Part shown: positions 8,858-38,876 of the stretch, piece after piece
Numbering within the stretch: the stretch's first letter is position 1
How the letters are laid out: every line of letters starts with the position of its first letter
Source: a virus
Strand: one strand, 5' to 3'
DNA: 41,164 nucleotides
IMG/VR virus record: IMGVR_UViG_3300030339_000011
Span: 64,001-105,164 of that record
Program-made: the position numbers and the translations under genes
Notes under the pieces: model-generated
The model's input: only the letters and a program-made list of their open reading frames with translations
The model's database searches: none
What the model was told of the DNA's origin: nothing

Positions 8858-8861
8858 ATTA

Positions 8862-10579: not shown

Positions 10580-10580
<1 letters not shown>
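10170..10580 (-). CDS. Array paralogue ([57 protein letters not shown])
   Basis: 136 aa. Confidence 0.75.
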
Positions 10581-11354
<774 letters not shown>

Positions 11355-11487: not shown

Positions 11488-12008
<521 letters not shown>

Positions 12009-13377: not shown

Positions 13378-16035
13378 ATGATAAATATTCAATTAGCTAG
13401 TGAAGAGTGGGTTAATAGTCAATTGACTGGATCCACAGGTGGAGGTTCTGGCGGAACATCAGTTATAGATTTAACTTATAATGATTTACTAAATTTAATT
13501 AACTCGAATAGTTTAATTCCTAACCAAGCATATTTGATTACTGATTATCAAACAGTACATCAGATAACAAACACAAGTGATATTAATTACGGTATAAATG
13601 AACCGTTATTGGTAATATCAAGTAGTTTTAATACATTAAATGTTGAGGCTCATTCAAGTTTATATCCTCAGGATATAATATATTATAATTATAGAAATGA
13701 TTCTAATATGGTACCTGGCTGTCAATATGGATATATTTATAGAAGAATAGATACGATTCAAGATAATGATATATCATTTGATTTTAGACAAGTTAAATTT
13801 AGAAGATGGCAGATAATTGTAAATAATGTTTGGAATTCAGGAACAACATATCAAAAAAATGATGTTGTTTTATACAATGGATCAATTTATATTTGTTTAT
13901 ATAATAATACTATTGGAGATAATAATTTTTCATATAATTGGAATCAATTTAAATGGAATAACTTGTCTTATGTGAGTCCAACTGAAAATGTATGGAGCAT
14001 TGGGAATTCAAACATTTCATGTAGTACAGGTTACACTGACTATAATATGTGGTCTGATATTAATAATTATAATTATTCTCATTCTAATAAGATAGAACAA
14101 CATAATAGTAATACCAATAATGGTGATATTATAAGCAATAAAAATACTATAATTTTTGGAAGTTATTTTCAATATAATAAAATTATTGGAAATAATTTTA
14201 TTAATAATAGCATAGGTGGTTATTTTCAAAATAATATAATTGGAAATTATTTTAATAATAATAGTGTTGGTGATTTTTTTCAAAATAATAATATTGGTGA
14301 TTATATTTTTGATAATATTATTGGAAATAATTTTATTTTTAATAATATTATAAATCAATATTATAATAATAATATTGGTATGGATTTTCAAAATAATACA
14401 ATAGAAAATAGTTTCAATCAGAATAGTATTAGCTATAATTTTATTTTTAATAATATTGGAAAAAGTTTTCAAAATAATAGTATTGGATATTATTTTGTAT
14501 CAAATACAACTGGAAATTATTTTGGAGATAATAATATCAAAAGCTATTTTTCAGATAATATAATTGGAAATAATTTTGGTAGTAATAAAAACAGAGATTA
14601 TTTTCAATATAATAATATAAAAAATGAGTATCGTAATAATACCACAGATACTAATTTTAATAATAATACAATTGGAGATTCATTTTATAATAATACAATT
14701 GGAACTACTTTTTATCAAAATAATATTAATCACCAGTTTAGTTATAATATAATTGGTAATGATAGTAAAGATAATATTATTGATCATGATTGTCAATATA
14801 ATACAATAGGAAATAGTTTTCATGATAATATAATAGGCAACATGTGCAGTAATAATATATTTGGAAATGGTAATAATAGTAATATCATTAAAAACTCATG
14901 TTCTCGTAACACATTTGGTATTAATAATGTTAATAATACGATTGAAAGTTATAGTATGAATAATACATTTGATGGTAATTGTAGTAATAATGTTATTGAA
15001 TATCAATGTAGCTTTAATATATTTTCTGGTAGTTGCTTTAATAATTCAATTGGAAGCAACTCTTCAAATATTACTATATTAAATGGACAAGGTAATATAT
15101 TTGGTATTCAATGTAATACGATTAATATAGGCAATAATAGTAAATATAATACATTTAAAAATTATTGTCAATTTGATACAATTGGTACTGATTTTTGGAA
15201 TAATACAATTGAAAACAATTTTGTGCGTAACAAAATTGGAAATTATTGTCAGTATAATATATTTGGTGGAATTATTGTAGATAGTATTTTAGGTAATTAT
15301 TTTAGTTATAATACATTTGGTAGTCAGGCTAAATGTAATCTAGGTGATAATTATTCCAATAATATTTTTAATAGTTCATGTAATTTGTCATTAGGAGGAT
15401 CAGGATTTTCTAATAATATATTTGGTAGTCAATGTAATTTGTCAATTGGAGATAATTGTTATGATAATGTATTTGGAAATCAATGTAATTTGACAATAGG
15501 AAGTCAATTTTCAAATAATAATTTTGGTAGTCAGATTAACGGTTCTATTTCTGATAATTGTTATAATAATACATTTGTTGGACAATGCAATTTTACAATC
15601 GGTAGTAATTTTCAAAATAATACAATTGGAAGTCAATGTAATTTAACAACATTAGACAATTTTCAATATAATACATTCGGTAGTGGCTGTGAATTTACAG
15701 TAGGAAATAATTTTAAAAATAATACTATTAATAATTATTCTCAATCTAATACAGTTGGAGAAGATTTTAAGAATAATATTGTTGGTAGTAATTTTTCTGA
15801 GAATACTATTGGTGATAGTTTTAATAATAACACAATTGGTAGTAGTTTTCAAAATATTATAATTGGTAGTAATTTTAATATGAATACTGTATGTGACAAT
15901 TTTAATTATTTTAATTTAGATTTAACATCATCAACGTATATTTATAATACTTACACAAAAGAATTATTTGTTAATTCAAACGGAGAGCAAAAATTAATTT
16001 ATGATAAAATGGTTATTGTAGATGCAAATTTATAA
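13378..16035 (+). CDS. Large tail-fibre-like protein (885 aa): shared N-terminal adaptor, conserved core, ~65 nonapeptide repeats, conserved C-terminal tail
   Basis: MINIQLASEEWV N-terminus and short GGGSGG linker. Core [56 protein letters not shown]. Very long xIGxxFxxN / NC..G repeat region. C-terminus STYIYNTYTKELFV..KLIYDKMVIVDANL. Confidence 0.85.
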   Translation: MINIQLASEEWVNSQLTGSTGGGSGGTSVIDLTYNDLLNLINSNSLIPNQAYLITDYQTVHQITNTSDINYGINEPLLVISSSFNTLNVEAHSSLYPQDIIYYNYRNDSNMVPGCQYGYIYRRIDTIQDNDISFDFRQVKFRRWQIIVNNVWNSGTTYQKNDVVLYNGSIYICLYNNTIGDNNFSYNWNQFKWNNLSYVSPTENVWSIGNSNISCSTGYTDYNMWSDINNYNYSHSNKIEQHNSNTNNGDIISNKNTIIFGSYFQYNKIIGNNFINNSIGGYFQNNIIGNYFNNNSVGDFFQNNNIGDYIFDNIIGNNFIFNNIINQYYNNNIGMDFQNNTIENSFNQNSISYNFIFNNIGKSFQNNSIGYYFVSNTTGNYFGDNNIKSYFSDNIIGNNFGSNKNRDYFQYNNIKNEYRNNTTDTNFNNNTIGDSFYNNTIGTTFYQNNINHQFSYNIIGNDSKDNIIDHDCQYNTIGNSFHDNIIGNMCSNNIFGNGNNSNIIKNSCSRNTFGINNVNNTIESYSMNNTFDGNCSNNVIEYQCSFNIFSGSCFNNSIGSNSSNITILNGQGNIFGIQCNTINIGNNSKYNTFKNYCQFDTIGTDFWNNTIENNFVRNKIGNYCQYNIFGGIIVDSILGNYFSYNTFGSQAKCNLGDNYSNNIFNSSCNLSLGGSGFSNNIFGSQCNLSIGDNCYDNVFGNQCNLTIGSQFSNNNFGSQINGSISDNCYNNTFVGQCNFTIGSNFQNNTIGSQCNLTTLDNFQYNTFGSGCEFTVGNNFKNNTINNYSQSNTVGEDFKNNIVGSNFSENTIGDSFNNNTIGSSFQNIIIGSNFNMNTVCDNFNYFNLDLTSSTYIYNTYTKELFVNSNGEQKLIYDKMVIVDANL
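14130..15910 (+). repeat. About 1.8 kb of degenerate 27-nt tandem repeats (~65 nonapeptide units)
   Basis: Period-9 pattern in the translation. In the second half the repeat changes flavour (..NCxxxxFG.QCN.. units). Confidence 0.7.
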
Positions 16036-18076: not shown

Positions 18077-21000
18077 ATGAGTGAAATAATATATTTAGCT
18101 AGTCAGGAATGGGTTAGAGGATTTGAAAGCGGATTAACTGGAAGTAGTTCTGCAAGTTATTGGGAAAAAGTACCACCAACTATTGGAACTACAACTGAAT
18201 TTCCTCTTTGGTGGTATAGTGGGGATTATAATATATATGGAAAAGATTATTATAATTTTGACGCTGTAACAGCAGGTATTAGAGGAAACCAAGGAGTTTA
18301 TTTTAATAACGGATTTTCAACTTATTTTGGAACTTCAACACCAGGTAGTACATCTACTAAATTTTATGCTGCACTTTTAGATAATCAATTATCTACTATT
18401 TCATATAATGAATGGTCTGGATATAATGGATTTTCAATAAGACTAACTCGTGAAGCGACTTCAGGTGAAACATTATTATCTGATGGAGAAATAATTTCAT
18501 CTGGATTCACAGATATAGACGGAAATGTATATAGTTGTGTTAAAATTGGTACTCAAATTTGGACTAGAGAAAATTTAAGAGTTATAAATGGATATGATTA
18601 TGCATCATCTGCAACAACTTCATTAGTAACTTTGGATGATCATGATTGGTGGTATAATACTAGTACTCAATATCCTGCTTATGCTGAATATCCAATTGAA
18701 AATATTATAGAAGATTATGCAATATTTAATTTACCTTTTACCATGCCTAGTGGATATACTCAAAATGATATAAATGTTATATACGGTAGAATATATTGCT
18801 TATTTGCAGCTAACACATTAATACAAAATAATCCAGATGGTTGGAGAGTACCTTTAAATTCTGATTTTGAAACAATGACGTCTTATATGATAAGTGTCAA
18901 TCCAAATATAACAATAGATAATGTTGGCGATGCATTAAAGTCAATAAGACATGCAGATTATGAAGCAATAAAACCTATTAATAGTACTGGATATGTAATA
19001 GTAGATTGTAATTTAGTTGTAAGTGGTGGTACAATGAGTGGAGATGGATCAAAAATAACAAATATATCAGCAACTAATGTAGTTGGAATTCCAACTAATT
19101 ATGCTCCATCTGATGGTGCTCAATATTTAACTGTTGAAGGAAAAAATGTTGATTCTGGAATAAATGGAGAGGAATTACAAACTGTATATGATTTAGCAAA
19201 ATCTATAAATCCGAGTTCAAATAATCCTATAAACATAATTATATATCCTGGATATTACGGAATGCCTAATGGACTTAGTTTAGATACTCCTTATATAAAT
19301 TTAATATCAGCAACAGGAGAATTAGATGTTAAAATTGAATTTGCTGGCGCTATTGTTATTTCAGATAATATTAAATTGACAGGTATATTTTTTGGAGGTA
19401 GTGGATTAAAACTCACTGGAAATTTTCCAGGGTTATGGATTGAAAATTGTTCAGGAATGATAGATGGGGGTAATATTTTAACGTATCCAGATACTAATTT
19501 ATCTGGAACTTTTAAAGATATAAATTTAGTTAATGGTAATGGATTTGGTTATATACAAGAAGCATCTGGATATTTTGAAAATATATATCATAAAGGTGGA
19601 AATTTATTTTATGATACTAAAATTATATCTGGTATATTCAAAAATTGTAATGCTGCAAACGGATTTGGTGTAGGAGGAGCTGTCATATCATCTGGTGCGA
19701 CATTTGAAAATTGTACATGTGATGATGCTGGATTTGGAGGAGGAGGAGGTTGTATTATATCATCTGGAACTACTTTTATTAATTGCAATTCTGGTGATAA
19801 TTCATTTGGTAATAGTGGAATAGAAGTGTCTGGTACATTTATTAATTGTAATGCTGGAAATTCTTCATTTGGTGCTCATTGTATGACATCTGGAACATTT
19901 GTGAATTGTACAGCAAAAGGTAATACTGGATCTTTTGGTGATTCTAAACAAGGTGGAACATTAACAGGTAGTTTATATAATTGTAGATTGACTACGCCAG
20001 GTACATTTGGACTTCCTTCAAGTGGAGGTACTATTCTGTTATGTATTGACGGTTATGGAGCAGTAATAGGAGCAGGAGATTTTGCTCCATCAGATGGAAA
20101 TCAATATTTAACAGTTAAAGGAATCAGTAGTGATCCTGGAACAAATGGAGCTGAGTTACAGAATGTTTATAATATAGCTAAGGCTTTAAATCCAACAATA
20201 ATTAGTCCAATTAATATAATTATTTATCCTGGTTATTATGGAATGACATCATTAATTAGTTTAGATACTCCTTATATAAATTTAATTTCTTCAACAGGGG
20301 AATTAGATATTGAAATTGGTTATAGTGGTATATTAATTATCACAGATAATATTAAATTAATTGGTATAAATTTTACAGGTATGGGATTAGAAATAAGAGG
20401 AAATTTTCCTGGATTAAGGATTGAAAATTGTTCAGGACAAATTAAAGGTAGCACAATTGATAATAGTACTATTTTATCTGGAACATTTAAAAATTTAAAA
20501 TTAACAAATAACACATTTGGATCAGGTGTTTCTGACTTTCCTGGTCATTTTGAAAATATAACATCAGACGGTGCGTTGTTTAATGGAGAGAATGGAGATT
20601 TATCTGGAAGATTTATAAATTGTACTGCTGAAACTGGATTTTCTTCAACATCTTTATCTGGTACATTTATTAATTGTAATTCTGGAGATTTCTCATTTGG
20701 AACAAATGAAGTTGGAGCAAATGTATCTGGAACATTTATAAATTGTACTGCTGGAAATACTTCATTTGGAATTGATGGTATTGCATCTGGAACATTTATA
20801 AATTGTACAGCAAAAAGTAAATCTTTTGGTGACTCTACACGAGGTGGAGCATTAACAGGAAGTTTATATAATTGTAGATTGACTACTCCAGGTACATTTG
20901 AAATACCTTCAAGTGGAGGTACAATTATATTATGTATTGACGGTTATGGAAAAATAATTGGGGGAGGTGATTTTGCTCCAACAATAGGAACTCAATTTTT

Positions 21001-22084
21001 AACAGTAAAAGGTGGAAATAGTAATCCTGGAATAAATGGAAATGAATTGCAAAATGTGTATAATATAGCGAAAGCTATAGTACCAGCACCAGATAGTCCA
21101 GTTAATATTATTATATATCCTGGATATTATAGTTTTCTAACTGATAGTCTTAATTTAGATACTCAAAATATAAATTTAGTTTCATCTACTGGAAATATCG
21201 ATGTAAATATTGGTGGTTCTGGTGTTATAATTACTAATAATAAAATAAAAATAAATGGTATTAACTTTATTGACGGTGGCTTAAAACTAACAGGAAATTT
21301 TCCAGAATTATATATTGAAAATTGCTCTGGACAAATTCAAGCTGATACTACTAATGGTGATGTTACTGCATCTGGAACATTTAAGAATATAAATATTACA
21401 ATGGGATCTGGGTTTTCAGGTATTTTTAATTGCTCAGGTATTTTCAAAAACATATTCAGTTCTAATAATTTGCCATTATTTTCAAGTTCAATTGATACAT
21501 TATCTGGAACATTTACAGATGTAAATTCTGTATTAATTTTTCAAGTAAATAATTTAACTGGTACATTTTTAAATTGTAAAGGGAATAACGGTAGTTTTAA
21601 TGGAATTTGCTCTGGTACTTTTACTAATTGTGAAGGATTATCTTCTTCATTTACTACGATAAATGGAGGTACTTATAATAATTGTGTAGGACAGTTTGTT
21701 GAAATATCAGGAGGAAAATTATATTATTGTAAGAAAAATGATGGTTCTTACCCTACTCCTATTAATGGTGGTGAAATTCATCTTTGTATTGACGGAAATG
21801 GAATTACTGTTGATTCATCAATTATACCTCAAAGTTTATCTTTAAGTAAAATTGGAGCAAATAGCACACCAAGTCCTCAAAGATTTCAATGGATAACAGA
21901 TAAAACAATATCAAGAGTATTATTAACAACTAACTGTTCAGGAGTAACTGTTTCAATTAGTGATATTACTTACGATGAAATAACATTAGTTGGAGTAACT
22001 TTACCTGCTTTAACTGACTTAGTTATTTTAGATATTGCAATACAAACTGGATATGACAATGCTAATGCGATTATAATTTTCTAA
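18077..22084 (+). CDS. Giant 1335-aa fibre/adhesin-like protein: shared N-terminal adaptor, FISUMP-like domain, three ~300-aa internal repeats rich in beta-helix NC..G..SFG units
   Basis: MSEIIYLASQEWV N-terminus. DGNVYSCVKIGTQIWTRENL followed about 100 aa later by PDGWRVPLNSDFETM matches the two signature blocks of the Fibrobacter succinogenes major paralogous (FISUMP) domain as I recall them. Three repeats each begin (D)FAPSDG.QYLTV.G...PG.NG.ELQ.VY..AK...P....PINIIIYPGYYG..LDTPYINLIS.TGELD. Many SGTFINC.AGN.SFG units. Confidence 0.8.
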   Translation: MSEIIYLASQEWVRGFESGLTGSSSASYWEKVPPTIGTTTEFPLWWYSGDYNIYGKDYYNFDAVTAGIRGNQGVYFNNGFSTYFGTSTPGSTSTKFYAALLDNQLSTISYNEWSGYNGFSIRLTREATSGETLLSDGEIISSGFTDIDGNVYSCVKIGTQIWTRENLRVINGYDYASSATTSLVTLDDHDWWYNTSTQYPAYAEYPIENIIEDYAIFNLPFTMPSGYTQNDINVIYGRIYCLFAANTLIQNNPDGWRVPLNSDFETMTSYMISVNPNITIDNVGDALKSIRHADYEAIKPINSTGYVIVDCNLVVSGGTMSGDGSKITNISATNVVGIPTNYAPSDGAQYLTVEGKNVDSGINGEELQTVYDLAKSINPSSNNPINIIIYPGYYGMPNGLSLDTPYINLISATGELDVKIEFAGAIVISDNIKLTGIFFGGSGLKLTGNFPGLWIENCSGMIDGGNILTYPDTNLSGTFKDINLVNGNGFGYIQEASGYFENIYHKGGNLFYDTKIISGIFKNCNAANGFGVGGAVISSGATFENCTCDDAGFGGGGGCIISSGTTFINCNSGDNSFGNSGIEVSGTFINCNAGNSSFGAHCMTSGTFVNCTAKGNTGSFGDSKQGGTLTGSLYNCRLTTPGTFGLPSSGGTILLCIDGYGAVIGAGDFAPSDGNQYLTVKGISSDPGTNGAELQNVYNIAKALNPTIISPINIIIYPGYYGMTSLISLDTPYINLISSTGELDIEIGYSGILIITDNIKLIGINFTGMGLEIRGNFPGLRIENCSGQIKGSTIDNSTILSGTFKNLKLTNNTFGSGVSDFPGHFENITSDGALFNGENGDLSGRFINCTAETGFSSTSLSGTFINCNSGDFSFGTNEVGANVSGTFINCTAGNTSFGIDGIASGTFINCTAKSKSFGDSTRGGALTGSLYNCRLTTPGTFEIPSSGGTIILCIDGYGKIIGGGDFAPTIGTQFLTVKGGNSNPGINGNELQNVYNIAKAIVPAPDSPVNIIIYPGYYSFLTDSLNLDTQNINLVSSTGNIDVNIGGSGVIITNNKIKINGINFIDGGLKLTGNFPELYIENCSGQIQADTTNGDVTASGTFKNINITMGSGFSGIFNCSGIFKNIFSSNNLPLFSSSIDTLSGTFTDVNSVLIFQVNNLTGTFLNCKGNNGSFNGICSGTFTNCEGLSSSFTTINGGTYNNCVGQFVEISGGKLYYCKKNDGSYPTPINGGEIHLCIDGNGITVDSSIIPQSLSLSKIGANSTPSPQRFQWITDKTISRVLLTTNCSGVTVSISDITYDEITLVGVTLPALTDLVILDIAIQTGYDNANAIIIF
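19080..21800 (+). repeat. Three tandem ~0.9 kb intragenic repeats (units starting near 19100, 20081, 20971)
   Basis: Protein-level repeat with clear nucleotide similarity (e.g. ..tttgctccatcagatgg.. / ..tttgctccaacaatagg.. ; ..atatatcctggatattat..). Confidence 0.7.
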
Positions 22085-22098
22085 AAAACAAATAAAAT

Positions 22099-22365
22099 AT
22101 GATACAAATAACAGACACAATAGAGTTTGATGAATCTAAAGATTTAGAATTTCAATCATCTGGATTTACGATATGGTTTCAAACTGAATGCTTAAGTAAA
22201 ATAAATTTTAAGAATGATGAATCAAAAACTTGTTCAACATTTGATAAATTTGGAAGACCATCGACTTGGATATTTGGTAATATAACAGTAGAGGCTGAAT
22301 ATTATCCAATTGTTGGAAATCAAGATTTTAATTTTAAAAAATATCTAGTTTATGGGAATATTTAA
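22099..22365 (+). CDS. Small MIQIT-protein, cassette component (paralogue of 25875)
   Basis: MIQITDTIEFDESKDLEFQSS aligns with MIQITGTTEFDETKLLSMQSS. The first ~35 nt of the two genes are nearly identical. It overlaps the downstream tailspike-like gene by 14 nt. Confidence 0.65.
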   Translation: MIQITDTIEFDESKDLEFQSSGFTIWFQTECLSKINFKNDESKTCSTFDKFGRPSTWIFGNITVEAEYYPIVGNQDFNFKKYLVYGNI

Positions 22366-23929
22366 AAGATACTATAATCCAGTTACAAATACTGTTCTCA
22401 CTGATGCAAACACCACATTTGTATGTTCAATAACTGGCAACAACAATAATCCAGGAACAAGAGAATTTCCAATTGCGACATTGACAAAATTTACATCATT
22501 ATATGATGATAATGCTCGTAATATATTATATAGAGGAGAAACTATTGAAAATCCAGCATCATTTTTTCATGGATATTTAATAGGAGATGGAGAAGATGCA
22601 TATTTAAATGGTAGTTGGACATGTAATTATTATGGATCAAGCATTTTTTATGGTATAAAAATATTACAATTCACTGGACTTGGAGGTATAATAAATTCAA
22701 GTATAAACACAATGTTAATGAGTTCATCAATAGTTGAGAGTAACTTTATTAACAATTACAATAGCTTAGTAGAAGGAGGTTCAAATAATGGAATAAGTAA
22801 TGGATTGAATATTAAAAATAATACAGTATTAAATTTTAAAAATTATTGTAAAATATCAGGTGTCAATTTATTAAATTTCATATTTGTTATTGAAGTAGAT
22901 TTATATAATTATACATCAGTATCAAATATATCAAATTTTCAAATTTTCAAATATTGTTTATTTAGAAAAACAATAATTTGGAAATGGAAAGGTATTATAG
23001 TTCCTATTAACTATGGTACTTATGGTAATATATTGAATGATTATATGACAGATGTAATTTCAGCATGGTATATTTTTTCTAATACCATTGTAGATGCAAC
23101 GGAAAAAGCATACTGTCAGACTATGTTTCCAAATGAAATTACGTCTCCTTTATTTTACATAGATATTAATGGACAAACATGTAAGGTAGTTGAGGATAGA
23201 CCATCTATTGAAGGAAGCAAAAAAATATTTAATAGATACACAAATGACAATCCTATTGATTATTCTTTGTTTTTGAATTCTGAAAACATTGCTTTAACTA
23301 TGAGCGATCAAAAAAACTATGTTGGATGTTACAAAGCAAATGCTGATGTGATAACATTTAACAATGTATTAAATGTGAATTCTGATGGTTCTGACGACTT
23401 AGTTACAATTCCTGATATGCTAGTTTTTAATGGCAATAGTAATTTTACTGTTAGTTCCGCTGATTCAGTTCAGATAAGAAATAGAATTCGTTCTAATGTA
23501 TTTACTTTTAAACGTGGTTTTTCTTTAGCTGGAATGCAAGGACAAGTTAAATCTGGATTAGAAAGTAGATTCTCTTTTGGTAAATTTCAAGCATATAATG
23601 TGACAGATTCTCCATCTTTACCTCAAGAATCATTAGAGATTATTCCATATGACAGTATGACAGAACCTTCATCATTTCCGAGATTTTCAGTTATGTTTAA
23701 TGGTGTGTGTCAAATGTGGTATAACTCAACAACAAATTTACCTATTTTATTTAATGATCTTTTATCATTTGGAATAGTGACTGATAAAAATTTAACTGAG
23801 TACGGAAATTGGGCTGTTACAAATGCTGATTATGAAAGTTTTTTATTAAGCTCATTACCTGGTATAAAACTAAATAACATAAAAATCTATTATGCTAAAG
23901 TAGAAATAAATCTTAATTATTATTTATAA
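22352..23929 (+). CDS. Tailspike-like protein, cassette copy 1 (paralogue of 24135 and 26144)
   Basis: MGIFKRYYNPVTNTVLTDANTTFVC..NPGTREFPIATLTKF (beta-helix cap-like G.T..P..T..KA). Conserved FKYCLFRKT..WKW, NVNSDGSDDLVT..RNR.RSNV, and EIIPYDS..YGNWAVTNAD.ESF blocks shared with 24135 and 26144. Confidence 0.8.
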   Translation: MGIFKRYYNPVTNTVLTDANTTFVCSITGNNNNPGTREFPIATLTKFTSLYDDNARNILYRGETIENPASFFHGYLIGDGEDAYLNGSWTCNYYGSSIFYGIKILQFTGLGGIINSSINTMLMSSSIVESNFINNYNSLVEGGSNNGISNGLNIKNNTVLNFKNYCKISGVNLLNFIFVIEVDLYNYTSVSNISNFQIFKYCLFRKTIIWKWKGIIVPINYGTYGNILNDYMTDVISAWYIFSNTIVDATEKAYCQTMFPNEITSPLFYIDINGQTCKVVEDRPSIEGSKKIFNRYTNDNPIDYSLFLNSENIALTMSDQKNYVGCYKANADVITFNNVLNVNSDGSDDLVTIPDMLVFNGNSNFTVSSADSVQIRNRIRSNVFTFKRGFSLAGMQGQVKSGLESRFSFGKFQAYNVTDSPSLPQESLEIIPYDSMTEPSSFPRFSVMFNGVCQMWYNSTTNLPILFNDLLSFGIVTDKNLTEYGNWAVTNADYESFLLSSLPGIKLNNIKIYYAKVEINLNYYL

Positions 23930-24111
23930 TGGAACGTATTAATAACATATCAATAGATTTTATTTCTTGCACTCAATTTGTTAGCGGTATGCCTGCAGAA
24001 ATATCACTTATCAACATAACAGTTGAAACATTAGTACCAGGTGATATAACATTTTTTGGTATAAGTACAGATCCTGCATTACCAAGTATAATAGAATATC
24101 AATTTAATTAA
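23929..24111 (+). CDS. Micro-protein ending ..SIIEYQFN (cassette component)
   Basis: 60-aa ORF whose ATG overlaps the upstream stop (TAATG). The C-terminal FFGISTDPALPSIIEYQFN is conserved with ORFs 25636 and 27880. Confidence 0.6.
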   Translation: MERINNISIDFISCTQFVSGMPAEISLINITVETLVPGDITFFGISTDPALPSIIEYQFN

Positions 24112-24134
24112 AAATAATAAAAAATATATAATTT

Positions 24135-25646
24135 ATGGGAATATTTAGAATATACTATCATCCAAAAAGTAACATTGTACTAACAAATACAAACACTAAA
24201 TTTGTTAGTACAATAGTTGGATTAAACACTAATCCAGGAACAAGAGAGTTGCCATATGCCACTTTAACCAAGGCTATATCCGCTATGGGTACAGCATCAT
24301 CAATTGTTTTAAGCGGTCCTACAATAGAAAATATATCATCATATGTTGATATAATAGGTGATAATGTATCTGCTGATATTAATGGAATATGTAATGGAAG
24401 TTATACCGCAAATTTATATAATCTTAGAGTATTAGAAGTTACAGGCAATTATGGAGAAGTAAAAAATTGTTTCGTTACTAGAAAAGGATTAGGTTCATAT
24501 GGACAAAATAGTTTTAATTTTGTAGAATCATCATCACGAGCTGCATCTTATTCTAATGGTGATTCTAATACAACATTTTTAAATTTTGATAATTGGACAG
24601 ATTCAACTGGTATGATACAGGATTCTAATATATATGTATCAATGATTGATTTATTTCCAAGAGTAGCATTAAGTTGTTATCCAATATTCAAATATTGTTT
24701 ATTTAGAAAAACAACTGTTTGGAAATGGAATGGAGAAATAATTCCAGATACTGATAATATAAATTCAATACCTGAGTTGTTATCATCATTAACTAATTAT
24801 GCTACTAATACATTATCTGGCACATCTCAAACTTATATGAGGTTATTAATAGACACATCATTTTATTCAGATATATCTATAGGACAAACTAATAAGATTG
24901 TAGATGATTCTATATATCCAATATTTAATAGGTATAATGTTGATGGATCTATATCTGATTATACTCTTAATGTTAATGGAAATAATATTGCTCTTTATAT
25001 GGCTAATCCTACATTACTTGATCATCAGTATGTTGGTTGTTACAAACCTAATATATCTGGTGAGTTTAGTAGTAATCCATTAGTGTTTGGTGATATAAAC
25101 AATGTTAATTCAGATGGTAGTGACGATTTAGTAACAACACCAGATTTATTGATTAGCAACGGAAAAGTTGGATTCTACGCTTCACAAGATTCTATTCAAA
25201 CTAGAAATAGAACAAGAAGTAACGTATTATCATATGCAAGAGGTATGAAACCTGGAGGTGGTCAAGCTCAACTAAAAAGTGGGTTAATAGATAGATTTTA
25301 TTTTGGAAAGAATAGAACATTTACAACATCATCAGTTCCTTGTGAAAGTGTTGAAATTATACCTTATGATTCTTTAACACAAATTAGTTCTTATCCAAGA
25401 TATTCAACACCATTTAATGATATCTGTCAAATTTGGTATCACATAGATGCGAATGTTCCTGTTCTATTTAATGAATTGTCTGAATTAGGTGTAATTTCAG
25501 ATATAAATTTAACTGAATATGGAAATTGGGCAGTAACAAATGCTGATAATGAATCATTTGATTTAAATTTTATAACAGGAGTTACATTAAGACCCCAAGT
25601 TATAGTTTATATTAAAATAGAATTAAATTTAAATTATGCGGAATAA
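24135..25646 (+). CDS. Tailspike-like protein, cassette copy 2
   Basis: MGIFRIYYHPKSNIVLTNTNTKFVSTIVGLNTNPGTRELPYATLTKA. Same conserved blocks as 22352. The first 30 nt are almost identical to 22352. Confidence 0.8.
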   Translation: MGIFRIYYHPKSNIVLTNTNTKFVSTIVGLNTNPGTRELPYATLTKAISAMGTASSIVLSGPTIENISSYVDIIGDNVSADINGICNGSYTANLYNLRVLEVTGNYGEVKNCFVTRKGLGSYGQNSFNFVESSSRAASYSNGDSNTTFLNFDNWTDSTGMIQDSNIYVSMIDLFPRVALSCYPIFKYCLFRKTTVWKWNGEIIPDTDNINSIPELLSSLTNYATNTLSGTSQTYMRLLIDTSFYSDISIGQTNKIVDDSIYPIFNRYNVDGSISDYTLNVNGNNIALYMANPTLLDHQYVGCYKPNISGEFSSNPLVFGDINNVNSDGSDDLVTTPDLLISNGKVGFYASQDSIQTRNRTRSNVLSYARGMKPGGGQAQLKSGLIDRFYFGKNRTFTTSSVPCESVEIIPYDSLTQISSYPRYSTPFNDICQIWYHIDANVPVLFNELSELGVISDINLTEYGNWAVTNADNESFDLNFITGVTLRPQVIVYIKIELNLNYAE

Positions 25647-25857
25647 TAACCTTTCATTGAATTTTTTAGGATTATCAACTAATGCTGCACATGATCATGA
25701 ATTGGGTTTTTTAGGATTATCAACTAGTATTATACATAAACCTGAAATGATGTTTTTAGGTATAAGTGTAGATAAACCTATTATTTGTACTCTTAGTACA
25801 TTTGGACCTAGTTGTGATGTGGCTCCACCAAGTATAATAGAATATCAATTTAATTAA
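25636..25857 (+). CDS. Micro-protein ending ..PPSIIEYQFN with internal FLG(L/I)S(T/V) triple repeat
   Basis: 73-aa ORF overlapping the upstream gene by 11 nt. Its 3' 34 nt are identical to the end of ORF 23929. Confidence 0.6.
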   Translation: MRNNNLSLNFLGLSTNAAHDHELGFLGLSTSIIHKPEMMFLGISVDKPIICTLSTFGPSCDVAPPSIIEYQFN

Positions 25858-25874
25858 AAAAAATATAAAAAAAA

Positions 25875-26141
25875 ATGATACAAATAACAGGCACAACAGA
25901 GTTTGATGAAACCAAACTACTATCTATGCAAAGTTCAGAATTTAAAGAATGGTATAATAAGAATGTTAATATTTTAATTAATGATAAACTAATTCCAGAT
26001 TCTTTAGATATATTTAATAGACCAATTTCTTATACCGTTATATTTGATAAATTTACAATAACAATTTATCCTCAATATATTTATAGTGATCAAAGTAGTT
26101 GGGCTTGCTCAGATTTACAAATAAAAATAAAAATTAATTAA
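25875..26141 (+). CDS. Small MIQIT-protein, second copy
   Basis: Paralogue of 22099, directly upstream of tailspike-like copy 3 (stop and start 3 nt apart). Confidence 0.65.
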   Translation: MIQITGTTEFDETKLLSMQSSEFKEWYNKNVNILINDKLIPDSLDIFNRPISYTVIFDKFTITIYPQYIYSDQSSWACSDLQIKIKIN

Positions 26142-26143
26142 TT

Positions 26144-27856
26144 ATGACAAATTTATTTAAAACACGTTTCGTTCCAAATGATGATGGTACAGATTCAGTC
26201 ACACAAATAACTAATATAAATACTGTATTTGTACATACTTATATTGGAGATGATTTTTCAGGAGATGGTACTCGTGAATATCCATATAAATCTATATTTA
26301 AGGCTAATCAAAAAATTGGAGTAACATATATAATTTTTAGAGGTGTAATAAATGAATATTTTCAATTAAATAATAAAAATTTAATTGGAGATGATATTAA
26401 TCAACAATTATTATTCTTAAATTATAATCCAGTTATATATGAAGGACCATTTTGCAATAATATGACAGTAGATTCCGTGAGTGGATCAGTTAATAGTAGA
26501 GCTTGGTCTCATTCAATAATAAAATCATATAATGTTTCATCATTAAATAATTTTAGTTATTTATTAGTTGAGAATATCGCTCGTGGTTCTTCTAATGATG
26601 GTAGAAGAGACAGGAATATATTACAATCTACTTTTTTAGGAAACGAAATAGGTAGTTGTACAATAAAAAATTGTATTCAAGTATCTGAATATAATTGGAT
26701 TAATACAAGTAATGGAACAAATAAATATGTTGTATTCCCATCAACTTGTATATTTAAATATAATAATATTCCATTAATACAGCCTGAATGGACTAATGAT
26801 TCAAAAACAAATATACAGATAATTAGAAATCTATATTTAGAATCTGGAATGAGCCAGCAAAACTTAGATTCTCTTTTTATGATAGATTCTTTTGGAAATG
26901 AAACTTGTAGAATTATAAAAGAATCAAGAAATGGCGGAACATCAGGCAACATTTTCAATATGTATAATACTGATGGTAGTATATTAGATTATTCTTTAAA
27001 TCCGCAGTCGAATAATGAAGCGTTATATGCATCTGACTTAGGTGGATATGTAGGATGTTTTGGTCCTGCTAATCCTATATTACCTACAGATTTAGATGTT
27101 CAAATTAATGTTAATTCTGATGGTTCTGATGATGTAGTTAATGCAGCTACTTTACTCAGAGGTAATGTTGATAATACTTTTGATTTTAATACAGCATCTG
27201 ATCAAATATGGAATAGAATGAGAAGTCATACCACAATATCTATACCTAACGGTGTTAAATTTAAAGGTAGTCAATCAATGGAAGATGATGGTAGTGCATT
27301 TGGTTATTACTTCGGTAAAAAACAAAATCTATTGGATATTACTATATTAACAACTGGAAGTACTTTAGAAGCCGATACATTATACAAAGTGTGTAATACA
27401 ATTAAGGACGTATTTTCAGCAGTATTATATAATGGTACTCAATATTTACCAGATTATTTTTTCAAAACAGGAACTGATGTTCTAAACTATTCATTGTTAA
27501 ATGAAGGATCTGGTACAATAGTACGTAAAGTGTTGAGCATTCCATTTGAATCAGAAGAAATTATACCTTATGACGACATTAATACTCCTTCTGTTAGCTT
27601 TCCTAAATTTAGCTGTCCTTTTTTCGGAATTGTGTTAATGTTATTTCATAAAATAGGAGATAGAATAGATTTACCTGTGTTATTTAGTGAAATAACAAGT
27701 GATAAAATATCGTATTATAGTGATTATGCAATTACAACTGCAGACAATGAATTTGTTATTTTATCTGCTGATTCTGTTAATTATTATTATAAAATTCCAG
27801 CTATTAAATTTTTTAGAATTGAACTAAATGCTCATTTTGATGAAGATTACGCTTAA
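26144..27856 (+). CDS. Tailspike-like protein, cassette copy 3 (most divergent)
   Basis: ..DGTREYPYKSIFKA.., VNSDGSDDVVNAATLL.., EEIIPYDDINTPSVSFPKFS..DYAITTADNEF share the family blocks. Confidence 0.75.
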   Translation: MTNLFKTRFVPNDDGTDSVTQITNINTVFVHTYIGDDFSGDGTREYPYKSIFKANQKIGVTYIIFRGVINEYFQLNNKNLIGDDINQQLLFLNYNPVIYEGPFCNNMTVDSVSGSVNSRAWSHSIIKSYNVSSLNNFSYLLVENIARGSSNDGRRDRNILQSTFLGNEIGSCTIKNCIQVSEYNWINTSNGTNKYVVFPSTCIFKYNNIPLIQPEWTNDSKTNIQIIRNLYLESGMSQQNLDSLFMIDSFGNETCRIIKESRNGGTSGNIFNMYNTDGSILDYSLNPQSNNEALYASDLGGYVGCFGPANPILPTDLDVQINVNSDGSDDVVNAATLLRGNVDNTFDFNTASDQIWNRMRSHTTISIPNGVKFKGSQSMEDDGSAFGYYFGKKQNLLDITILTTGSTLEADTLYKVCNTIKDVFSAVLYNGTQYLPDYFFKTGTDVLNYSLLNEGSGTIVRKVLSIPFESEEIIPYDDINTPSVSFPKFSCPFFGIVLMLFHKIGDRIDLPVLFSEITSDKISYYSDYAITTADNEFVILSADSVNYYYKIPAIKFFRIELNAHFDEDYA

Positions 27857-27879
27857 TAAAAATAAAATAAAATAAAATA

Positions 27880-28086
27880 ATGACTAAAATAAACAATTTG
27901 AATATATCGTTAGACATGGGTGTTATTCAACCATTAAATAAAGTAGTTGGTAAATTACATACGATGAGTATTAAGTTAGATTATGGTGTTATACCACCTA
28001 AGAATTTTTATAGAGGAAGAATTAATATATTAGGAATTGGATTAACTAATGCAGAACAGAGTGTAATAGAATATCAATTCAATTAA
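27880..28086 (+). CDS. Micro-protein ending ..QSVIEYQFN
   Basis: 68-aa ORF. ILGIGLT..SVIEYQFN is conserved with 23929 and 25636. Hairpin terminator follows. Confidence 0.6.
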   Translation: MTKINNLNISLDMGVIQPLNKVVGKLHTMSIKLDYGVIPPKNFYRGRINILGIGLTNAEQSVIEYQFN

Positions 28087-28090
28087 CATA

Positions 28091-28122
28091 AAAAGAGTAG
28101 ATTTAAAATCTACTCTTTTTTA
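28091..28122 (+). terminator. Hairpin terminator (AAAGAGTAGAT-5 nt-ATCTACTCTTT-TTT)
   Basis: Perfect 11-bp inverted repeat plus T-run after the tailspike cassette block. Confidence 0.65.
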
Positions 28123-28154: not shown

Positions 28155-28442
28155 ATGATTACAAAATTTAAAATATATGAATCAATAAATGAAGGAGAGC
28201 CAGAGAAAGGTGACTTTGTAATTGTTGATATCGAAGATGATACATATTATCAAAAAGGAACAATTGACTTAGTGAATAATGGTATTCATAGATTAATTGA
28301 TATACTATATGAAGCTAACTCTACTTCATATGTTATTGATTTTTCAGGTACTTGGTTCGTAAATAGAAAAAATATAATATATTGGGCAAAAAATTCAAAA
28401 GAATTAGAACCTTTACTACAATCAAACAAATTTAATATATGA
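28155..28442 (+). CDS. Small protein ending ..NKFNI (1 of 3 tandem paralogues), xGDxVxV SH3/KOW-like N-terminus
   Basis: MITKFKIYESINEGEPEKGDFVIVD aligns with ORF 28762. Stop and start overlap (ATGA). Confidence 0.65.
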   Translation: MITKFKIYESINEGEPEKGDFVIVDIEDDTYYQKGTIDLVNNGIHRLIDILYEANSTSYVIDFSGTWFVNRKNIIYWAKNSKELEPLLQSNKFNI

Positions 28443-28765
28443 AATACATAAAACAATTTGAAAGGTTATCTAAATATAAAGTTGGAGATTATATAGTAAT
28501 TGAATATAATTGGAATAGTGGAAATGATATACTATATAATTTGAAAGGATTTATTGATAGCACAATAGGAGTTTTATATGGTGAAGAATACGATAAAAAA
28601 AACTTAGTTATAAGATATGATAATGTACCAGAAGAATTAGTTCAGTTTTTCACAAAGATTGATAGTGGATATATAAAACCATTTTATCATTCTCAAATGG
28701 TTGGTTATTCTGAAAAAAAAGAAGATTTAGAATATTTAATAAATGCAAATAAATTTAATATATGA
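28439..28765 (+). CDS. Small protein ending ..NKFNI (2 of 3)
   Basis: KVGDYIVIEYNW.. and C-terminus LINANKFNI. ATGA overlaps on both sides. Confidence 0.65.
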   Translation: MKYIKQFERLSKYKVGDYIVIEYNWNSGNDILYNLKGFIDSTIGVLYGEEYDKKNLVIRYDNVPEELVQFFTKIDSGYIKPFYHSQMVGYSEKKEDLEYLINANKFNI

Positions 28766-29094
28766 TAACAGGATTTAAACTATACGAATCTTTTAATGAA
28801 GGAGAACCAGAAGTTGGTGATTATGTAATTTGTAATACCAAATATAGTCCTGATTTGAATTTATATCTTAGTAATCAAATAGGAAAAATAATAGGAATTG
28901 ATAATGAAGATAATAGAGTAGAACCTTATCAAGTACATTTCATTAACGTTCCAGATTCTTTAAGAAAATATAAAAATGTTAGAGATTATAAATATTCAAA
29001 TACAATACCATTTTCAAGATTTGAAATAATCAATTGGTCCAAGAACAAAGAAGAATTAAAGAATATATTTGATACTAACAAATTCAACATTTAA
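28762..29094 (+). CDS. Small protein ending ..NKFNI (3 of 3)
   Basis: MITGFKLYESFNEGEPEVGDYVICN.., C-terminus FDTNKFNI. Confidence 0.65.
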   Translation: MITGFKLYESFNEGEPEVGDYVICNTKYSPDLNLYLSNQIGKIIGIDNEDNRVEPYQVHFINVPDSLRKYKNVRDYKYSNTIPFSRFEIINWSKNKEELKNIFDTNKFNI

Positions 29095-29211: not shown

Positions 29212-29243
29212 AAAGAGAGATAATAATTTATCTCTCTTTTTTT
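29212..29243 (+). terminator. Hairpin terminator (AAAGAGAGATA-6 nt-TATCTCTCTTT-TTTT) ending an ORF-free 190-nt region
   Basis: Perfect inverted repeat plus T-run. The upstream 29095-29211 has no ORF but does have a second hairpin (GTGATG-8 nt-CATCAC at 29141-29162). Confidence 0.55.
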
Positions 29244-30262: not shown

Positions 30263-30694
30263 ATGTCAACAGATGATTTAAGAAATTGGTTATTAGACAA
30301 ATTGTTGTCATGTTATCCAGTGGTTAGTGAAAATTTATATCATCAAATTTATTGGTATTATGATGAATCTTATATAAGGAAAAATAAATTATTAAAATTG
30401 AATAATATTTCTAATGATGATTTATTAAATCATAAAATAAATGGAGAATGTTTATTCATTCAAGATACAGACAATAAATTCATTTGGTGTGATCATAAAT
30501 ATATTTGGAATTTTTTAGAATCGAATTATAATGAAAATGAGTATAAGATAAATATATTAATTGAGAAAATATTAATCAATAAGAAGGAATTTAATGATTA
30601 TAATTATTTTGGTTATTATGATCATGAGATGAATAAAATTCTATTATTAAAATCATTCAAAGAATTAAAAATAATTGATTATTCAATTAGATAA
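30263..30694 (+). CDS. Second dispersed member of the MSKEELS array family
   Basis: MSTDDLRNWLLDKLLSCYPVV..IYWYYDESYIRKNKLLKLNN..GECLFIQDTDNKFIWCDHKYIWNFLESNY matches the family core, about 19 kb away from the array. Confidence 0.7.
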   Translation: MSTDDLRNWLLDKLLSCYPVVSENLYHQIYWYYDESYIRKNKLLKLNNISNDDLLNHKINGECLFIQDTDNKFIWCDHKYIWNFLESNYNENEYKINILIEKILINKKEFNDYNYFGYYDHEMNKILLLKSFKELKIIDYSIR

Positions 30695-30744: not shown

Positions 30745-32673
<1,929 letters not shown>

Positions 32674-34874: not shown

Positions 34875-35078
34875 TTATAACTCATAAACTAATCCATCAA
34901 TAACCTCAACTCGAACCTTACAGTTCATCCCTCTCACTCCATTGATAGTTGGAATGATTGCTAATATATCATCTGACACATCTTCATTTGATAATATTTC
35001 TAACTCATATCCACTCCAAAGAGCATTGTACTCTCCATTTTTAATATCTACATTTCTTTTTGATAAACTGTTTTTCAT
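34875..35078 (-). CDS. Small protein, paralogue of 35088 (shared ..I.NG.YNA.WS...L.ILSN.. pattern)
   Basis: MKNSLSKRNVDIKNGEYNALWSGYELEILSNEDV aligns with MAASKTKVKIDDGIYNAIWISDNLTILSNDNK. Confidence 0.6.
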   Translation of the reverse strand: MKNSLSKRNVDIKNGEYNALWSGYELEILSNEDVSDDILAIIPTINGVRGMNCKVRVEVIDGLVYEL

Positions 35079-35087
35079 ATTTATTTT

Positions 35088-38873: not shown

Positions 38874-38876
38874 ATA

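What the first reader, a model, noticed from the sequence alone, without database searches (positions are those of the whole stretch)
22099..28086. Triplicated tailspike cassette (MIQIT mini-gene, ~500-570-aa spike, micro-ORF ending IEYQFN) with nucleotide-identical junctions
Seen in sequence: three paralogous 503-570-aa proteins (22352, 24135, 26144) share an N-terminal beta-helix-cap-like segment (..NPGTRE.P.ATLTK.), a central NVNSDGSDDLVT..RNR.RSN block and a C-terminal EIIPYDS..YGNWAVTNAD.ESF block. Copies 1 and 3 are preceded by paralogous 88-aa MIQIT.TEFDE.K genes. Each spike is followed by a 60-73-aa ORF that is divergent except for a conserved hhGIS(T/V)D...S(I/V)IEYQFN-COOH end. At DNA level the boundaries are nearly identical: 24081-24115 matches 25827-25860 (34 nt identical across the IEYQFN end, stop and spacer). 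ATGATACAAATAACAG.CACAA.AGAGTTTGATGAA is shared at 22099 and 25875. ATGGGAATATTTA.A..ATACTAT.ATCC is shared at 22352 and 24135. Conserved junctions with divergent interiors suggest cassette duplication and exchange by homologous recombination at the junctions. That would generate receptor-binding or depolymerase diversity. The conserved-C-terminus micro-proteins may be spike-specific chaperones or strand-donating adaptor peptides (inference).
Basis: partly seen in the sequence, partly recalled or inferred. Interest (0 to 1): 0.75.

Follow-up and report, generated by a model that had tools for sequence, protein, structure and literature searches.

The report
Three stacked phage tailspike gene cassettes
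A large uncultured phage carries three diverged copies of an unannotated host-recognition module (a small gene, a beta-helix spike and a repeat-containing micro-gene) that seem to have been stacked by recombination at the module's ends, a familiar way of widening host range carried out here by undescribed proteins.

Summary
Window 22099-28086 holds three paralogous spike genes (525, 503 and 570 aa). Each is followed by a 60-73-aa ORF ending in IEYQFN. Copies 1 and 3 are preceded by an 88-aa MIQIT gene, and copy 2 keeps only a 22-nt relic of one.

All three gene families are real and under purifying selection (dN/dS 0.17-0.53). The mini-spike-micro cassette, always placed after a fibre gene with a conserved C-terminal domain, recurs in about 25 loci. 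These include siphovirus-type temperate phages, a crAss-type phage and this roughly 240-kb phage.

This is not a local triplication. The three spikes fall in three clades, and close relatives carry one or two cassettes in a different order. The first 48 nt of the mini gene and the last roughly 36 nt of the micro gene follow the phage lineage, while the interior follows the cassette type. That supports recombination at the cassette ends.

The role of the micro-protein is unresolved. It contains 3-4 tandem beta-strand units and no autonomous fold is predicted. I rate this a new variant of a known kind (multi-RBP modular exchange) with moderate interest.

The parts
18077..22084 (+). Upstream fibre gene (1335 aa). 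It has a FISUMP/Fib_succ_major N-terminal domain and three internal repeats of about 300 aa. Its last ~85 aa (nt ~21827-22081) form a C-terminal domain (...TLVGVTLPA.T.L.I.DI.I..GY.NANAIIIF) that is conserved upstream of the cassette in every relative.
   Evidence: domain hits; conserved C-terminal domain on otherwise variable proteins of 153-1335 aa.
22083..22146 (+). Left cassette junction: A-rich spacer plus the first 48 nt of mini1. This segment is specific to the phage lineage and marks a recombination breakpoint.
   Evidence: Codons 1-16 are 83-92% identical (nt) to minis of the same lineage, including B-type ones, but 44-67% to A-type minis elsewhere.
22099..22365 (+). mini1, 88 aa, A-type mini-protein with a mosaic 5' end. 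It overlaps the spike1 start by 14 nt.
   Evidence: family of at least 70 clusters, all 85-100 aa; dN/dS 0.53 vs L006.
22352..23929 (+). spike1, 525 aa, A-type. Closest relatives are in siphovirus-type temperate phages (57-59% identity).
23929..24111 (+). micro1, 60 aa, with three beta-strand units and the IEYQFN tail. Its start codon overlaps the spike1 stop codon.
24081..24124 (+). Junction repeat, copy 1: micro1 tail, stop codon and A-rich spacer.
   Evidence: family D3; 34-nt exact run; P about 0.009.
24113..24134 (+). Relic of the 3' end of a deleted A-type mini gene, immediately upstream of spike2.
   Evidence: sequence; 24105-24134 aligns to the 3' end of L006 mini-A; 34/40 match to 22330-22369.
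24135..25646 (+). spike2, 503 aa, A-type, with no mini gene of its own. Its ortholog in L006 is 78% identical.
   Evidence: (dN/dS 0.19).
25636..25857 (+). micro2, 73 aa, with four units, including a 45-nt tandem duplication at 25663-25760. It overlaps the spike2 end by 11 nt.
   Evidence: D5; TRF period 45, 2.2 copies.
25827..25870 (+). Junction repeat, copy 2: micro2 tail, stop codon and spacer.
25875..26141 (+). mini3, 88 aa, B-type mini-protein.
   Evidence: (dN/dS 0.24).
26144..27856 (+). spike3, 570 aa, B-type. This is the resident cassette, shared with the syntenic sibling phage L027.
27880..28086 (+). micro3, 68 aa, B-type (I.LDMG.I.P / DYGVIPPKNF / LGIGL units plus the IEYQFN tail).
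   Evidence: dN/dS 0.17-0.33.
28090..28120 (.). 14-bp hairpin followed by a T-run, an intrinsic-terminator-like site that closes the fibre-to-micro3 transcription unit.

Best explanation
The region is the host-recognition end of the tail-fibre operon of a very AT-rich uncultured phage of roughly 240 kb. It contains three diverged copies of a portable module made of a mini-protein (about 85 aa), a spike (500-700 aa) and a micro-protein (about 60-80 aa). In relatives this module is normally present once, directly after a fibre gene with a conserved C-terminal domain and directly before the lysis genes. The spike is a right-handed parallel beta-helix protein. The body of the helix is hypervariable and most likely binds, and possibly cleaves, a surface polysaccharide (inferred). 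Its N-terminal cap and its C-terminal half of about 300 aa, which is specific to this family, are conserved and most likely serve assembly (inferred). The array was built by recombination rather than by local triplication. A resident B-type cassette, shared with the sibling phage, was joined by two A-type cassettes from different clades. The crossovers lie in the first ~48 nt of the mini gene and in the last ~36 nt of the micro gene plus the A-rich spacer. In the process one A-type mini gene was deleted down to 22 nt. The micro-protein is a string of 3-4 amphipathic beta-strand units with a conserved h-h-x-Y-Q-h-N C-terminus. It most likely works bound to its cognate spike, as a folding helper or a retained adaptor (inferred, not shown). 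Carrying three spikes would give the phage three glycan specificities (inferred).
Against: No experiment or co-fold shows that the spike is part of the virion, that it is enzymatically active, or that it binds mini or micro. It lacks the N-terminal anchor domain of classical tailspikes, since the beta-helix starts near residue 20. It models well as a monomer, and its oligomeric state is unknown. The micro-protein model is poor. Lineage-specific ends could reflect selection for a shared docking partner rather than crossovers, or both. The tree is a neighbour-joining tree without support values, and the margin separating spike1 from spike2 is modest (54-59% vs 50%).
Confidence: 0.62

Rival explanations
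1. Local tandem triplication followed by divergence: one ancestral cassette was copied twice in this genome and the copies then drifted apart.
For: Tandem paralogy is rampant in this genome: 41 of 70 ORFs belong to paralog families, including a 15-member array. Direct repeats sit at the unit boundaries.
Against: Each spike is closer to spikes in other phages than to its neighbours: spike1 57-59%, spike2 81% and spike3 65-69%, against 33-50% among themselves. The A and B types occur separately in many unrelated phages. The sibling phage has only B, and L006 has B followed by A.
Confidence: 0.1
2. The 'spikes' are not virion proteins. They are soluble beta-helix polysaccharide-degrading enzymes expressed late and released at lysis, and the small ORFs are folding or export helpers.
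For: The cassette lies directly upstream of the holin and endolysin genes in most relatives. The fold matches monomeric carbohydrate esterases and lyases best. There is an enzyme-like DUF1565-type N-terminal cap and no anchor domain. GH136 beta-helix enzymes, which from my own knowledge (not checked here) need a dedicated co-encoded chaperone, appear among the weak hits.
Against: The cassette is always linked to, and co-transcribed with, a fibre gene that has a conserved C-terminal domain. Phage tail fibres and spikes are also among the top structural hits (9rkv, 6c72). The module moves between three tail types as a unit together with the fibre C-terminal domain.
Confidence: 0.15
3. The conserved junctions reflect function rather than recombination. 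The mini N-terminus and the micro C-terminal tail would be docking peptides for a lineage-specific virion partner, and the nearby A-rich spacers would be expression signals, so selection keeps them alike.
For: Both ends track the phage lineage rather than the cassette type. All three micro tails in this genome read IEYQFN. Docking peptides of secondary RBPs are documented in branched RBP systems (abstract of PMC13352976, listed).
Against: The identity extends to synonymous sites (9 of 9 codons, P about 0.009) and into the non-coding spacer, which protein-level selection does not explain. Actual rearrangements between relatives break at these points. The two explanations are compatible and may both be true.
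Confidence: 0.3
4. The micro-ORFs and mini-ORFs are chance ORFs in AT-rich DNA rather than genes.
For: They are short, have no database annotation, and the micro-protein has no confident fold.
Against: They are conserved in position, length and motifs in about 25 loci spanning GC contents from about 25% to 40%. dN/dS is 0.17-0.53. Profile searches find 16 and 70 clusters respectively in the database. Their starts are tightly coupled to the neighbouring genes.
Confidence: 0.02

Closest known systems
Multi-tailspike (branched RBP) systems: Ackermannviridae TSP1-4 (CBA120), Klebsiella KP32-type dual RBPs, RaK2/phiK64-1/phiKp24 hyperbranched fibres
   Same: Several beta-helix receptor-binding proteins are encoded in tandem in one phage, the modules are acquired or exchanged by recombination, and conserved ends flank variable specificity parts (abstracts of PMC11414711, PMC13352976 and PMC9700779, listed). 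CBA120 TSP1 and TSP4 appear among the structural hits.
   Different: There is no N-terminal anchor or branching domain on the spike, and no Pfam hit to the TSP1/gp66 or T4 gp10-like domains. The layout is inverted: the C-terminal half is conserved and the N-proximal beta-helix is variable. Each spike comes with two dedicated small genes, which those systems lack.
Tail-fibre plus downstream chaperone pairs (T4 gp37/gp38 and gp57A, lambda/Mu/P2 Tfa, Alteromonas phage V22/A5 fibre-chaperone modules)
   Same: A small gene immediately downstream of the RBP gene travels with it as a unit between unrelated phage families (PMC10579305 abstract). The micro type co-varies with the spike type.
   Different: The micro-protein is much smaller (59-94 aa), is made of 3-4 tandem units of 15-18 aa, and has no sequence similarity to any Pfam, PHROG, NCBIfam or PDB entry. 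A second small gene lies upstream. A chaperone function has not been shown.
Monomeric pectin-lyase-fold carbohydrate enzymes (CE8 pectin methylesterases, PL1/PL9 pectate lyases, DUF1565 proteins)
   Different: Sequence identity is 11-16%. The DUF1565 score is below the gathering threshold (16.4 vs 20.3 bits). The helix is short, catalytic residues were not verified, and an extra C-terminal half of about 300 aa is unique to this family.
Agrobacterium phage 7-7-1 tail fibre (PDB 9rkv)
   Different: Only the beta-helix aligns (13-15% identity). The global superposition is poor (rmsd 8.7-17.6) and nothing matches the C-terminal half.

Membership tests
Phage tailspike / depolymerase RBP (right-handed beta-helix) | Right-handed parallel beta-helix domain | tested here: met
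Phage tailspike / depolymerase RBP (right-handed beta-helix) | N-terminal particle-binding (anchor) domain preceding the beta-helix | tested here: not met
   Beta-helix strands start at about residue 21, directly after a 20-residue leader. No anchor-domain Pfam or PHROG hit.
Phage tailspike / depolymerase RBP (right-handed beta-helix) | Gene located in the tail or structural module | tested here: met
   It follows collagen-like, Laminin_G_3 and fibre genes in the window. In L032/L034 it lies between the tail module and the holin/endolysin genes: in L034 it is downstream of the tape-measure gene, in L032 the tape-measure gene lies beyond the lysis genes.
Phage tailspike / depolymerase RBP (right-handed beta-helix) | Homotrimeric, virion-attached, cleaves or binds a surface glycan | not testable with these tools
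No proteomic or biochemical data exist.
Pfam DUF1565 (PF07602) | Score at or above the gathering threshold | tested here: not met
   Spike2 scores 16.4 bits against a cut-off of 20.3, over residues 28-60 only. Spike1 and spike3 have no hit.
Tail-fibre assembly chaperones (Tfa, gp38, gp57A and similar) | Gene immediately downstream of, and co-inherited with, the RBP gene | tested here: met
   The micro-ORF starts between -11 and +23 nt from the spike stop in the window and holds the same position in about 25 loci.
Tail-fibre assembly chaperones (Tfa, gp38, gp57A and similar) | Sequence or profile similarity to a known chaperone family | tested here: not met
   No Pfam, PHROG or NCBIfam hit for micro or mini. 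No PDB sequence hit for the mini profile. The micro model is too poor for a fold search.
Tail-fibre assembly chaperones (Tfa, gp38, gp57A and similar) | Required for folding or oligomerisation of the RBP | not testable with these tools
   This needs co-expression experiments or multimer prediction.
Intramolecular-chaperone RBPs (Peptidase_S74 C-terminal domain) | C-terminal S74 autoproteolytic chaperone domain | tested here: not met
   No Pfam hit on any spike. The C-terminal half has no PDB relative.
Branched RBP complexes (Ackermannviridae, KP32-type) | Branching or docking domains (TSP1/gp66 N-terminal, T4 gp10-like) on the RBPs | tested here: not met
   No such Pfam or PHROG hits. BFVD lists a TSP1/Gp66 protein only at E 0.17 through the beta-helix.
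Invertible or diversity-generating tail-fibre switches (Mu Gin / P1 Cin shufflons, DGR) | Inverted repeats flanking alternative fibre ends, or a template/variable repeat pair with a reverse transcriptase | tested here: not met
   All cassettes lie in direct orientation. The best inverted repeats are 34 nt at 74%, at chance level. No invertase or RT appeared among the ORFs scanned, although not every window ORF was scanned.
Crassvirales | crAss-type major capsid protein | tested here: inconclusive
   The relative L004 has PF23898 Crass_capsid 4.5 kb downstream of its cassette. No capsid gene was seen in the window or in the 10 kb upstream, and a genome of roughly 240 kb would be atypical.

The most novel reading that the evidence does not exclude
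The cassette may be a split, portable receptor-binding module whose virion-docking determinants sit on the two small proteins rather than on the spike. The first ~16 residues of the mini-protein and the C-terminal h-h-x-Y-Q-h-N tail of the micro-protein stay with the phage lineage. The interior (mini body, spike, micro repeats) is swapped as a unit between siphovirus-type, crAss-type and jumbo phages. The micro-protein would be a retained adaptor: its variable beta-strand repeats grip the cognate spike and its constant tail donates a strand to a common socket, for example the conserved fibre C-terminal domain. That would allow several different spikes to be mounted on one fibre.
Probability: 0.2. 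Interest if true: 0.7.

Novelty: new variant of a known kind. Interest (0 to 1): 0.5.

Why it matters
Phages that stack several receptor-binding proteins, and exchange them by recombination at conserved ends, are well known, so the principle here is not new. The parts are new. The spike family has a C-terminal half with no solved relative. Two families of dedicated small proteins accompany it, one of them a tandem-repeat micro-protein of 59-94 aa. An associated fibre C-terminal domain completes the set. None of these has any annotation in Pfam, PHROGs, NCBIfam, the PDB or 50,697 deposited phage genomes. The module crosses three tail architectures. If the small proteins prove to be the adaptors, it would be a compact plug-in system of interest for host-range engineering. 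It would also help in annotating receptor-binding genes in soil and peat phages, probably of Bacteroidota (the host is inferred). The window also gives a clean natural example of cassette accretion with mapped breakpoints.

Tried and rejected
1. A nucleotide search of the region against GenBank phages in distant mode found nothing. tblastn searches with spike2 and spike3 also found nothing.
2. Pfam, PHROGs and NCBIfam gave only sub-threshold cap-motif hits on the cassette proteins. Rfam found nothing on either strand, and there are no tRNAs.
3. I tested whether the mini-protein is a free-standing copy of the fibre C-terminal domain, an idea prompted by a 98-aa ORF in L008/L036 that joins a mini-like N-terminus to a fibre-like C-terminus. 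hhalign gave a probability of 2.5%, so I rejected it.
4. I tested whether the micro-protein is related to part of the spike or is fused to it somewhere. hhalign gave a probability of 1%, and there were no fusions among about 190 family proteins.
6. The micro-protein alone gave pLDDT 51, too poor for a fold search. AFDB50 was unavailable.
7. A scan of 185,579 species genomes to identify hosts found only one 3-kb MAG contig labelled Negativicutes, which is uninformative.
8. The pseudo-threefold 'cap' idea for the micro-protein (three repeats matched to a trimer) is weakened because the number of units varies between 3 and 4 or more.
9. The sigma-70 promoter scan is uninformative in this AT-rich DNA: 99 sites found against 106 expected.


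Full report
**1. Observation**

The window is very AT-rich, at about 20-30% GC.

| Gene | Coordinates | Length (aa) |
|---|---|---|
| mini1 | 22099-22365 | 88 |
| spike1 | 22352-23929 | 525 |
| micro1 | 23929-24111 | 60 |
| spike2 | 24135-25646 | 503 |
| micro2 | 25636-25857 | 73 |
| mini3 | 25875-26141 | 88 |
| spike3 | 26144-27856 | 570 |
| micro3 | 27880-28086 | 68 |

- The spikes align along their whole length. Spike2 and spike3 are 46% and 32% identical to spike1, and the quoted motifs are present.
- The longest exact run between the two A-type units is 34 nt, at 24081-24114 against 25827-25860.
- Genes are tightly coupled. mini1 overlaps spike1 by 14 nt, the spike1 stop overlaps the micro1 start, and spike2 overlaps micro2 by 11 nt.
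- The only strong terminator-like hairpin in the stretch lies directly after micro3, at 28090-28120. The fibre gene through micro3 is therefore probably one transcription unit.

**2. Are the junctions more alike than chance?**

- At positions where the spikes share an amino acid, they share the codon 52-58% of the time.
- Given the window's codon usage, nine identical residues (PSIIEYQFN) would all use identical codons with P of about 0.009.
- In 100-nt bins, identity between the two A-type units is 0.76 at the 5' boundary and 0.82 at the 3' boundary, against 0.38-0.68 inside.
- The spike-start junction (34/40) is no better than interior conserved motifs such as IFKYCLFRKT or EYGNWAVTNAD (33-36/40).
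- So the micro-tail junction stands out clearly, and the other junctions only modestly.

**3. What the genes are**

- None of the eight proteins has a significant hit in Pfam, PHROGs or NCBIfam. The only signals are sub-threshold matches to the beta-helix cap motif on spike2: DUF1565 in Pfam and the LIC10774 surface-protein family in NCBIfam.
- The surroundings are a virion and fibre module. It includes collagen-like fibre paralogs, a Laminin_G_3 protein, a CBM5/12 protein, and a 1335-aa protein with a FISUMP/Fib_succ_major domain directly upstream.
- The spike family is small and wholly unannotated. It has 37 clusters in the 5.8-billion-protein database and 77 representatives at E<=1e-30 among 1.84 billion. 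Weaker hits there match only the generic N-terminal cap, so the C-terminal half belongs to this family alone.
- No relative exists in 50,697 deposited phage genomes. Only one turned up in 185,579 species genomes.

**4. Structure**

- With a 37-sequence alignment, AlphaFold2 gives a confident model of spike2 (pLDDT 87, pTM 0.79). Residues ~20-200 form a beta-solenoid, followed by a helical hairpin and a mixed C-terminal domain.
- Foldseek against the PDB finds nothing at E<=0.001. The best hit is the Agrobacterium phage 7-7-1 tail fibre at E 0.011, covering the beta-helix only. BFVD hits are equally partial.
- The refutation condition 'no beta-helix' therefore fails. The C-terminal ~300 residues have no recognisable relative.
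- Conservation is inverted relative to classical tailspikes. The helix body (residues ~60-160) is the most variable part, at 19-31% identity among the window paralogs. The cap, the last rung and the C-terminal half are conserved.
- The conserved NVNSDGSDD loop resembles an EF-hand or dockerin-type calcium loop. This is my reading of the sequence and was not tested.

**5. The cassette in relatives**

- Identical contigs from peat and bog metagenomes reach 126.5-243 kb.
- A divergent relative with a crAss-type capsid gene (L004) has one cassette: an 85-aa mini overlapping the spike start, a 606-aa spike and a 60-aa micro.
- Twenty-one IMG/VR loci and further contigs show the same three genes in the same order, normally once. 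The cassette follows a protein of 153-1335 aa whose last ~85 residues are conserved (...TLVGV.LPA.TEL.INDLTI.AG..NANAIIIF), and it precedes holin-like and endolysin genes.
- L032 and L034 are siphovirus-type temperate elements with a tape-measure gene and an integrase. L034 is flanked by host genes. Both carry the same four-part arrangement.
- The module therefore occurs in three tail architectures.
- Two subtypes exist. Type A comprises window cassettes 1 and 2. Type B comprises window cassette 3. Mini, spike and micro types co-vary.

**6. The small genes are real**

- Against relatives about 80% identical in DNA, dN/dS is 0.17-0.37 for the micros, 0.24-0.53 for the minis and 0.19-0.29 for the spikes.
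- Profile searches recover 16 micro clusters and 70 mini clusters. All are stand-alone and unnamed, and none is a fusion.
- The micro-proteins consist of 3-4 tandem units of about 15-18 residues with alternating hydrophobic residues and a G-(L/I)-S or G-V-I-P-P turn. They end in a conserved h-h-x-Y-Q-h-N C-terminus.
- micro2 carries a 45-nt tandem duplication that is visible in the DNA. P0039 has one more unit than P0043.
- On its own, micro3 gives a poor model (pLDDT 51, pTM 0.29) with a disordered tail. This is compatible with folding on a partner, but also with a shallow alignment.
The mini-protein is not related to the fibre C-terminal domain, and the micro-protein is not related to the spike.

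**7. How the array arose**

- Tandem paralogy is common in this genome: 41 of 70 ORFs belong to paralog families. Even so, the three spikes are not local copies of each other.
- In a tree of 88 family members they fall in three clades.

| Window spike | Closest relatives elsewhere | Identity to spike1 | Identity to spike2 |
|---|---|---|---|
| spike1 | 57-59% to a group that includes the siphovirus-type phages | - | 50% |
| spike2 | 81% to L006 | 50% | - |
| spike3 | 65-69% to other B-type spikes | 33% | 34% |

- Gene order differs among close relatives.

| Source | Gene order |
|---|---|
| L027 (235.6-kb syntenic sibling) | fibre-[B]-KFNI genes |
| L006 | fibre-[B]-[mini-A + spike2-like + micro]-other genes |
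| Window | fibre-[A1]-[A2 without mini]-[B]-KFNI genes |

- Window 24105-24134 aligns to the 3' end of L006's mini-A. The 22 nt upstream of spike2 are therefore the relic of a deleted mini gene.
- Both cassette ends are mosaic.
  - Codons 1-16 of the A-type mini1 are 83-92% identical in DNA to the minis of this lineage, including the B-type ones, but 44-67% to A-type minis elsewhere.
  - For codons 31-88 the pattern reverses: 43-45% to B-type and 58-71% to A-type.
  - The last 36 nt of micro2 are 92% identical to the non-orthologous micro1 but 78% to its own ortholog in L006. For the body the figures are 49% and 72%.
- These are the marks of crossovers or gene conversion at the cassette ends, possibly reinforced by selection on lineage-specific docking ends.

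**8. Mechanism**

Shown:
- a conserved, co-transcribed fibre-mini-spike-micro module;
- a beta-helix spike whose helix body is variable;
- three diverged cassettes joined at mosaic ends.

Inferred:
- the spikes are distal receptor-binding or depolymerase subunits, each specific for a different glycan;
- the conserved C-terminal half and the small proteins mediate assembly;
- the micro-protein acts bound to its spike, as a chaperone or a retained adaptor;
- mini1 may serve both A-type spikes, since cassette 2 has lost its own mini gene while spike2 remains under purifying selection.

The host is probably a member of the Bacteroidota. The pointers are a crAss-type relative, Arm-DNA-bind_5 and Phage_int_SAM_5 integrase domains in L034, and a FISUMP domain. 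This rests on my own knowledge of where those families occur and was not tested.

**9. Comparison and verdict**

- The closest known systems are the multi-tailspike branched RBP complexes and the fibre-plus-chaperone pairs that move between phages.
- This module works like them, but it fails the membership tests that depend on known anchor, branching or chaperone domains. Its layout also differs: there is no N-terminal anchor, the C-terminal half is conserved, and two flanking small genes accompany each spike.
- I classify it as a new variant of a known kind, of moderate interest.

Noticed in passing
window 5756-11354 (- strand), plus 11556-12008 (+) and 30263-30694 (+): A 15-member family of paralogous genes of about 115-170 aa. 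Thirteen of them form a head-to-tail array on the minus strand with overlapping starts and stops. None of the members was scanned against the family libraries except 30263-30694, which has no Pfam hit. The sibling phage L027 has a shorter array.
   Followed up: partly
window 36243-37675 (- strand): Six tandem paralogs of about 81-83 aa with overlapping starts and stops. Smaller paralog pairs lie at 34875-35285, 38664-39263 and 39632-40323. In all, 41 of 70 ORFs in the window belong to paralog families.
   Followed up: partly
window 28155-29094 (+): Three tandem paralogs (95, 108 and 110 aa) that all end in ...NKFNI, directly after the cassette terminator. They are conserved in the sibling phage (L027, L014), have no Pfam hit, and are followed by a second strong hairpin terminator at 29212-29239.
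   Followed up: partly
window 18077-22084 (+), internal repeats at about 19100-21400: The upstream 1335-aa fibre protein contains three tandem repeats of about 300 aa (70-76% nt identity). Each begins with a beta-helix-cap-like motif (FAPSDG.QYLTVKG...P.NIIIYPGYYG), so the protein may carry three more beta-helix modules in a single chain. The sibling's ortholog is 710 aa with two repeats.
   Followed up: partly
window 193-1440, 3977-5722, 13378-16035, 30781-32673 (+): Four paralogous fibre-like proteins. Three have collagen or tail-fibre family matches (3977-5722 and 30781-32673) or a CBM5/12 domain (13378-16035); 193-1440 has no hit of its own. The phage therefore encodes many putative host-recognition proteins besides the three spikes.
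   Followed up: partly
last ~85 codons of the gene upstream of the cassette in all loci (window ~21827-22081): A conserved C-terminal domain (P..L.L.K.GANG...P..F.W....TIS.V.L.SNCS.ISV.IG...Y...TLVGV.LPA.TEL.INDLTI.AG..NANAIIIF) sits on proteins whose N-terminal parts vary from 153 to 1335 aa. It has no PDB or Pfam relative and may be the platform to which the cassette proteins attach.
   Followed up: partly
L008 5452-5748 and L036 637-933: An extra 98-aa ORF joins a mini-like N-terminal segment (I.F....L..QS.EFQ.W..EN) to a segment resembling the fibre C-terminal domain. This hints that the mini N-terminus is a separable module.
   Followed up: partly
spike residues around NVNSDGSDD (window ~23390-23416, 25107-25133, 27110-27136): An EF-hand or dockerin-like N-x-N-x-D-G-x-D-D loop is almost invariant across the family and may be a calcium site in the C-terminal domain.
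   Followed up: no
contig lengths reported for P0040 and L027: The sibling phage's micro gene is on record on a 711-kb contig, while the contig fetched is 235.6 kb. 711 kb is close to three times 235.6 kb, so it may be an assembly concatemer of a circularly permuted genome rather than a megaphage.
   Followed up: no
L004 12010-14235: In the crAss-type relative, the cassette is followed by a 741-aa protein with a long run of NCAIYNNNAT.GGGV repeats, which looks beta-helix-like. This would be a second putative receptor-binding protein, of a different family.
   Followed up: no
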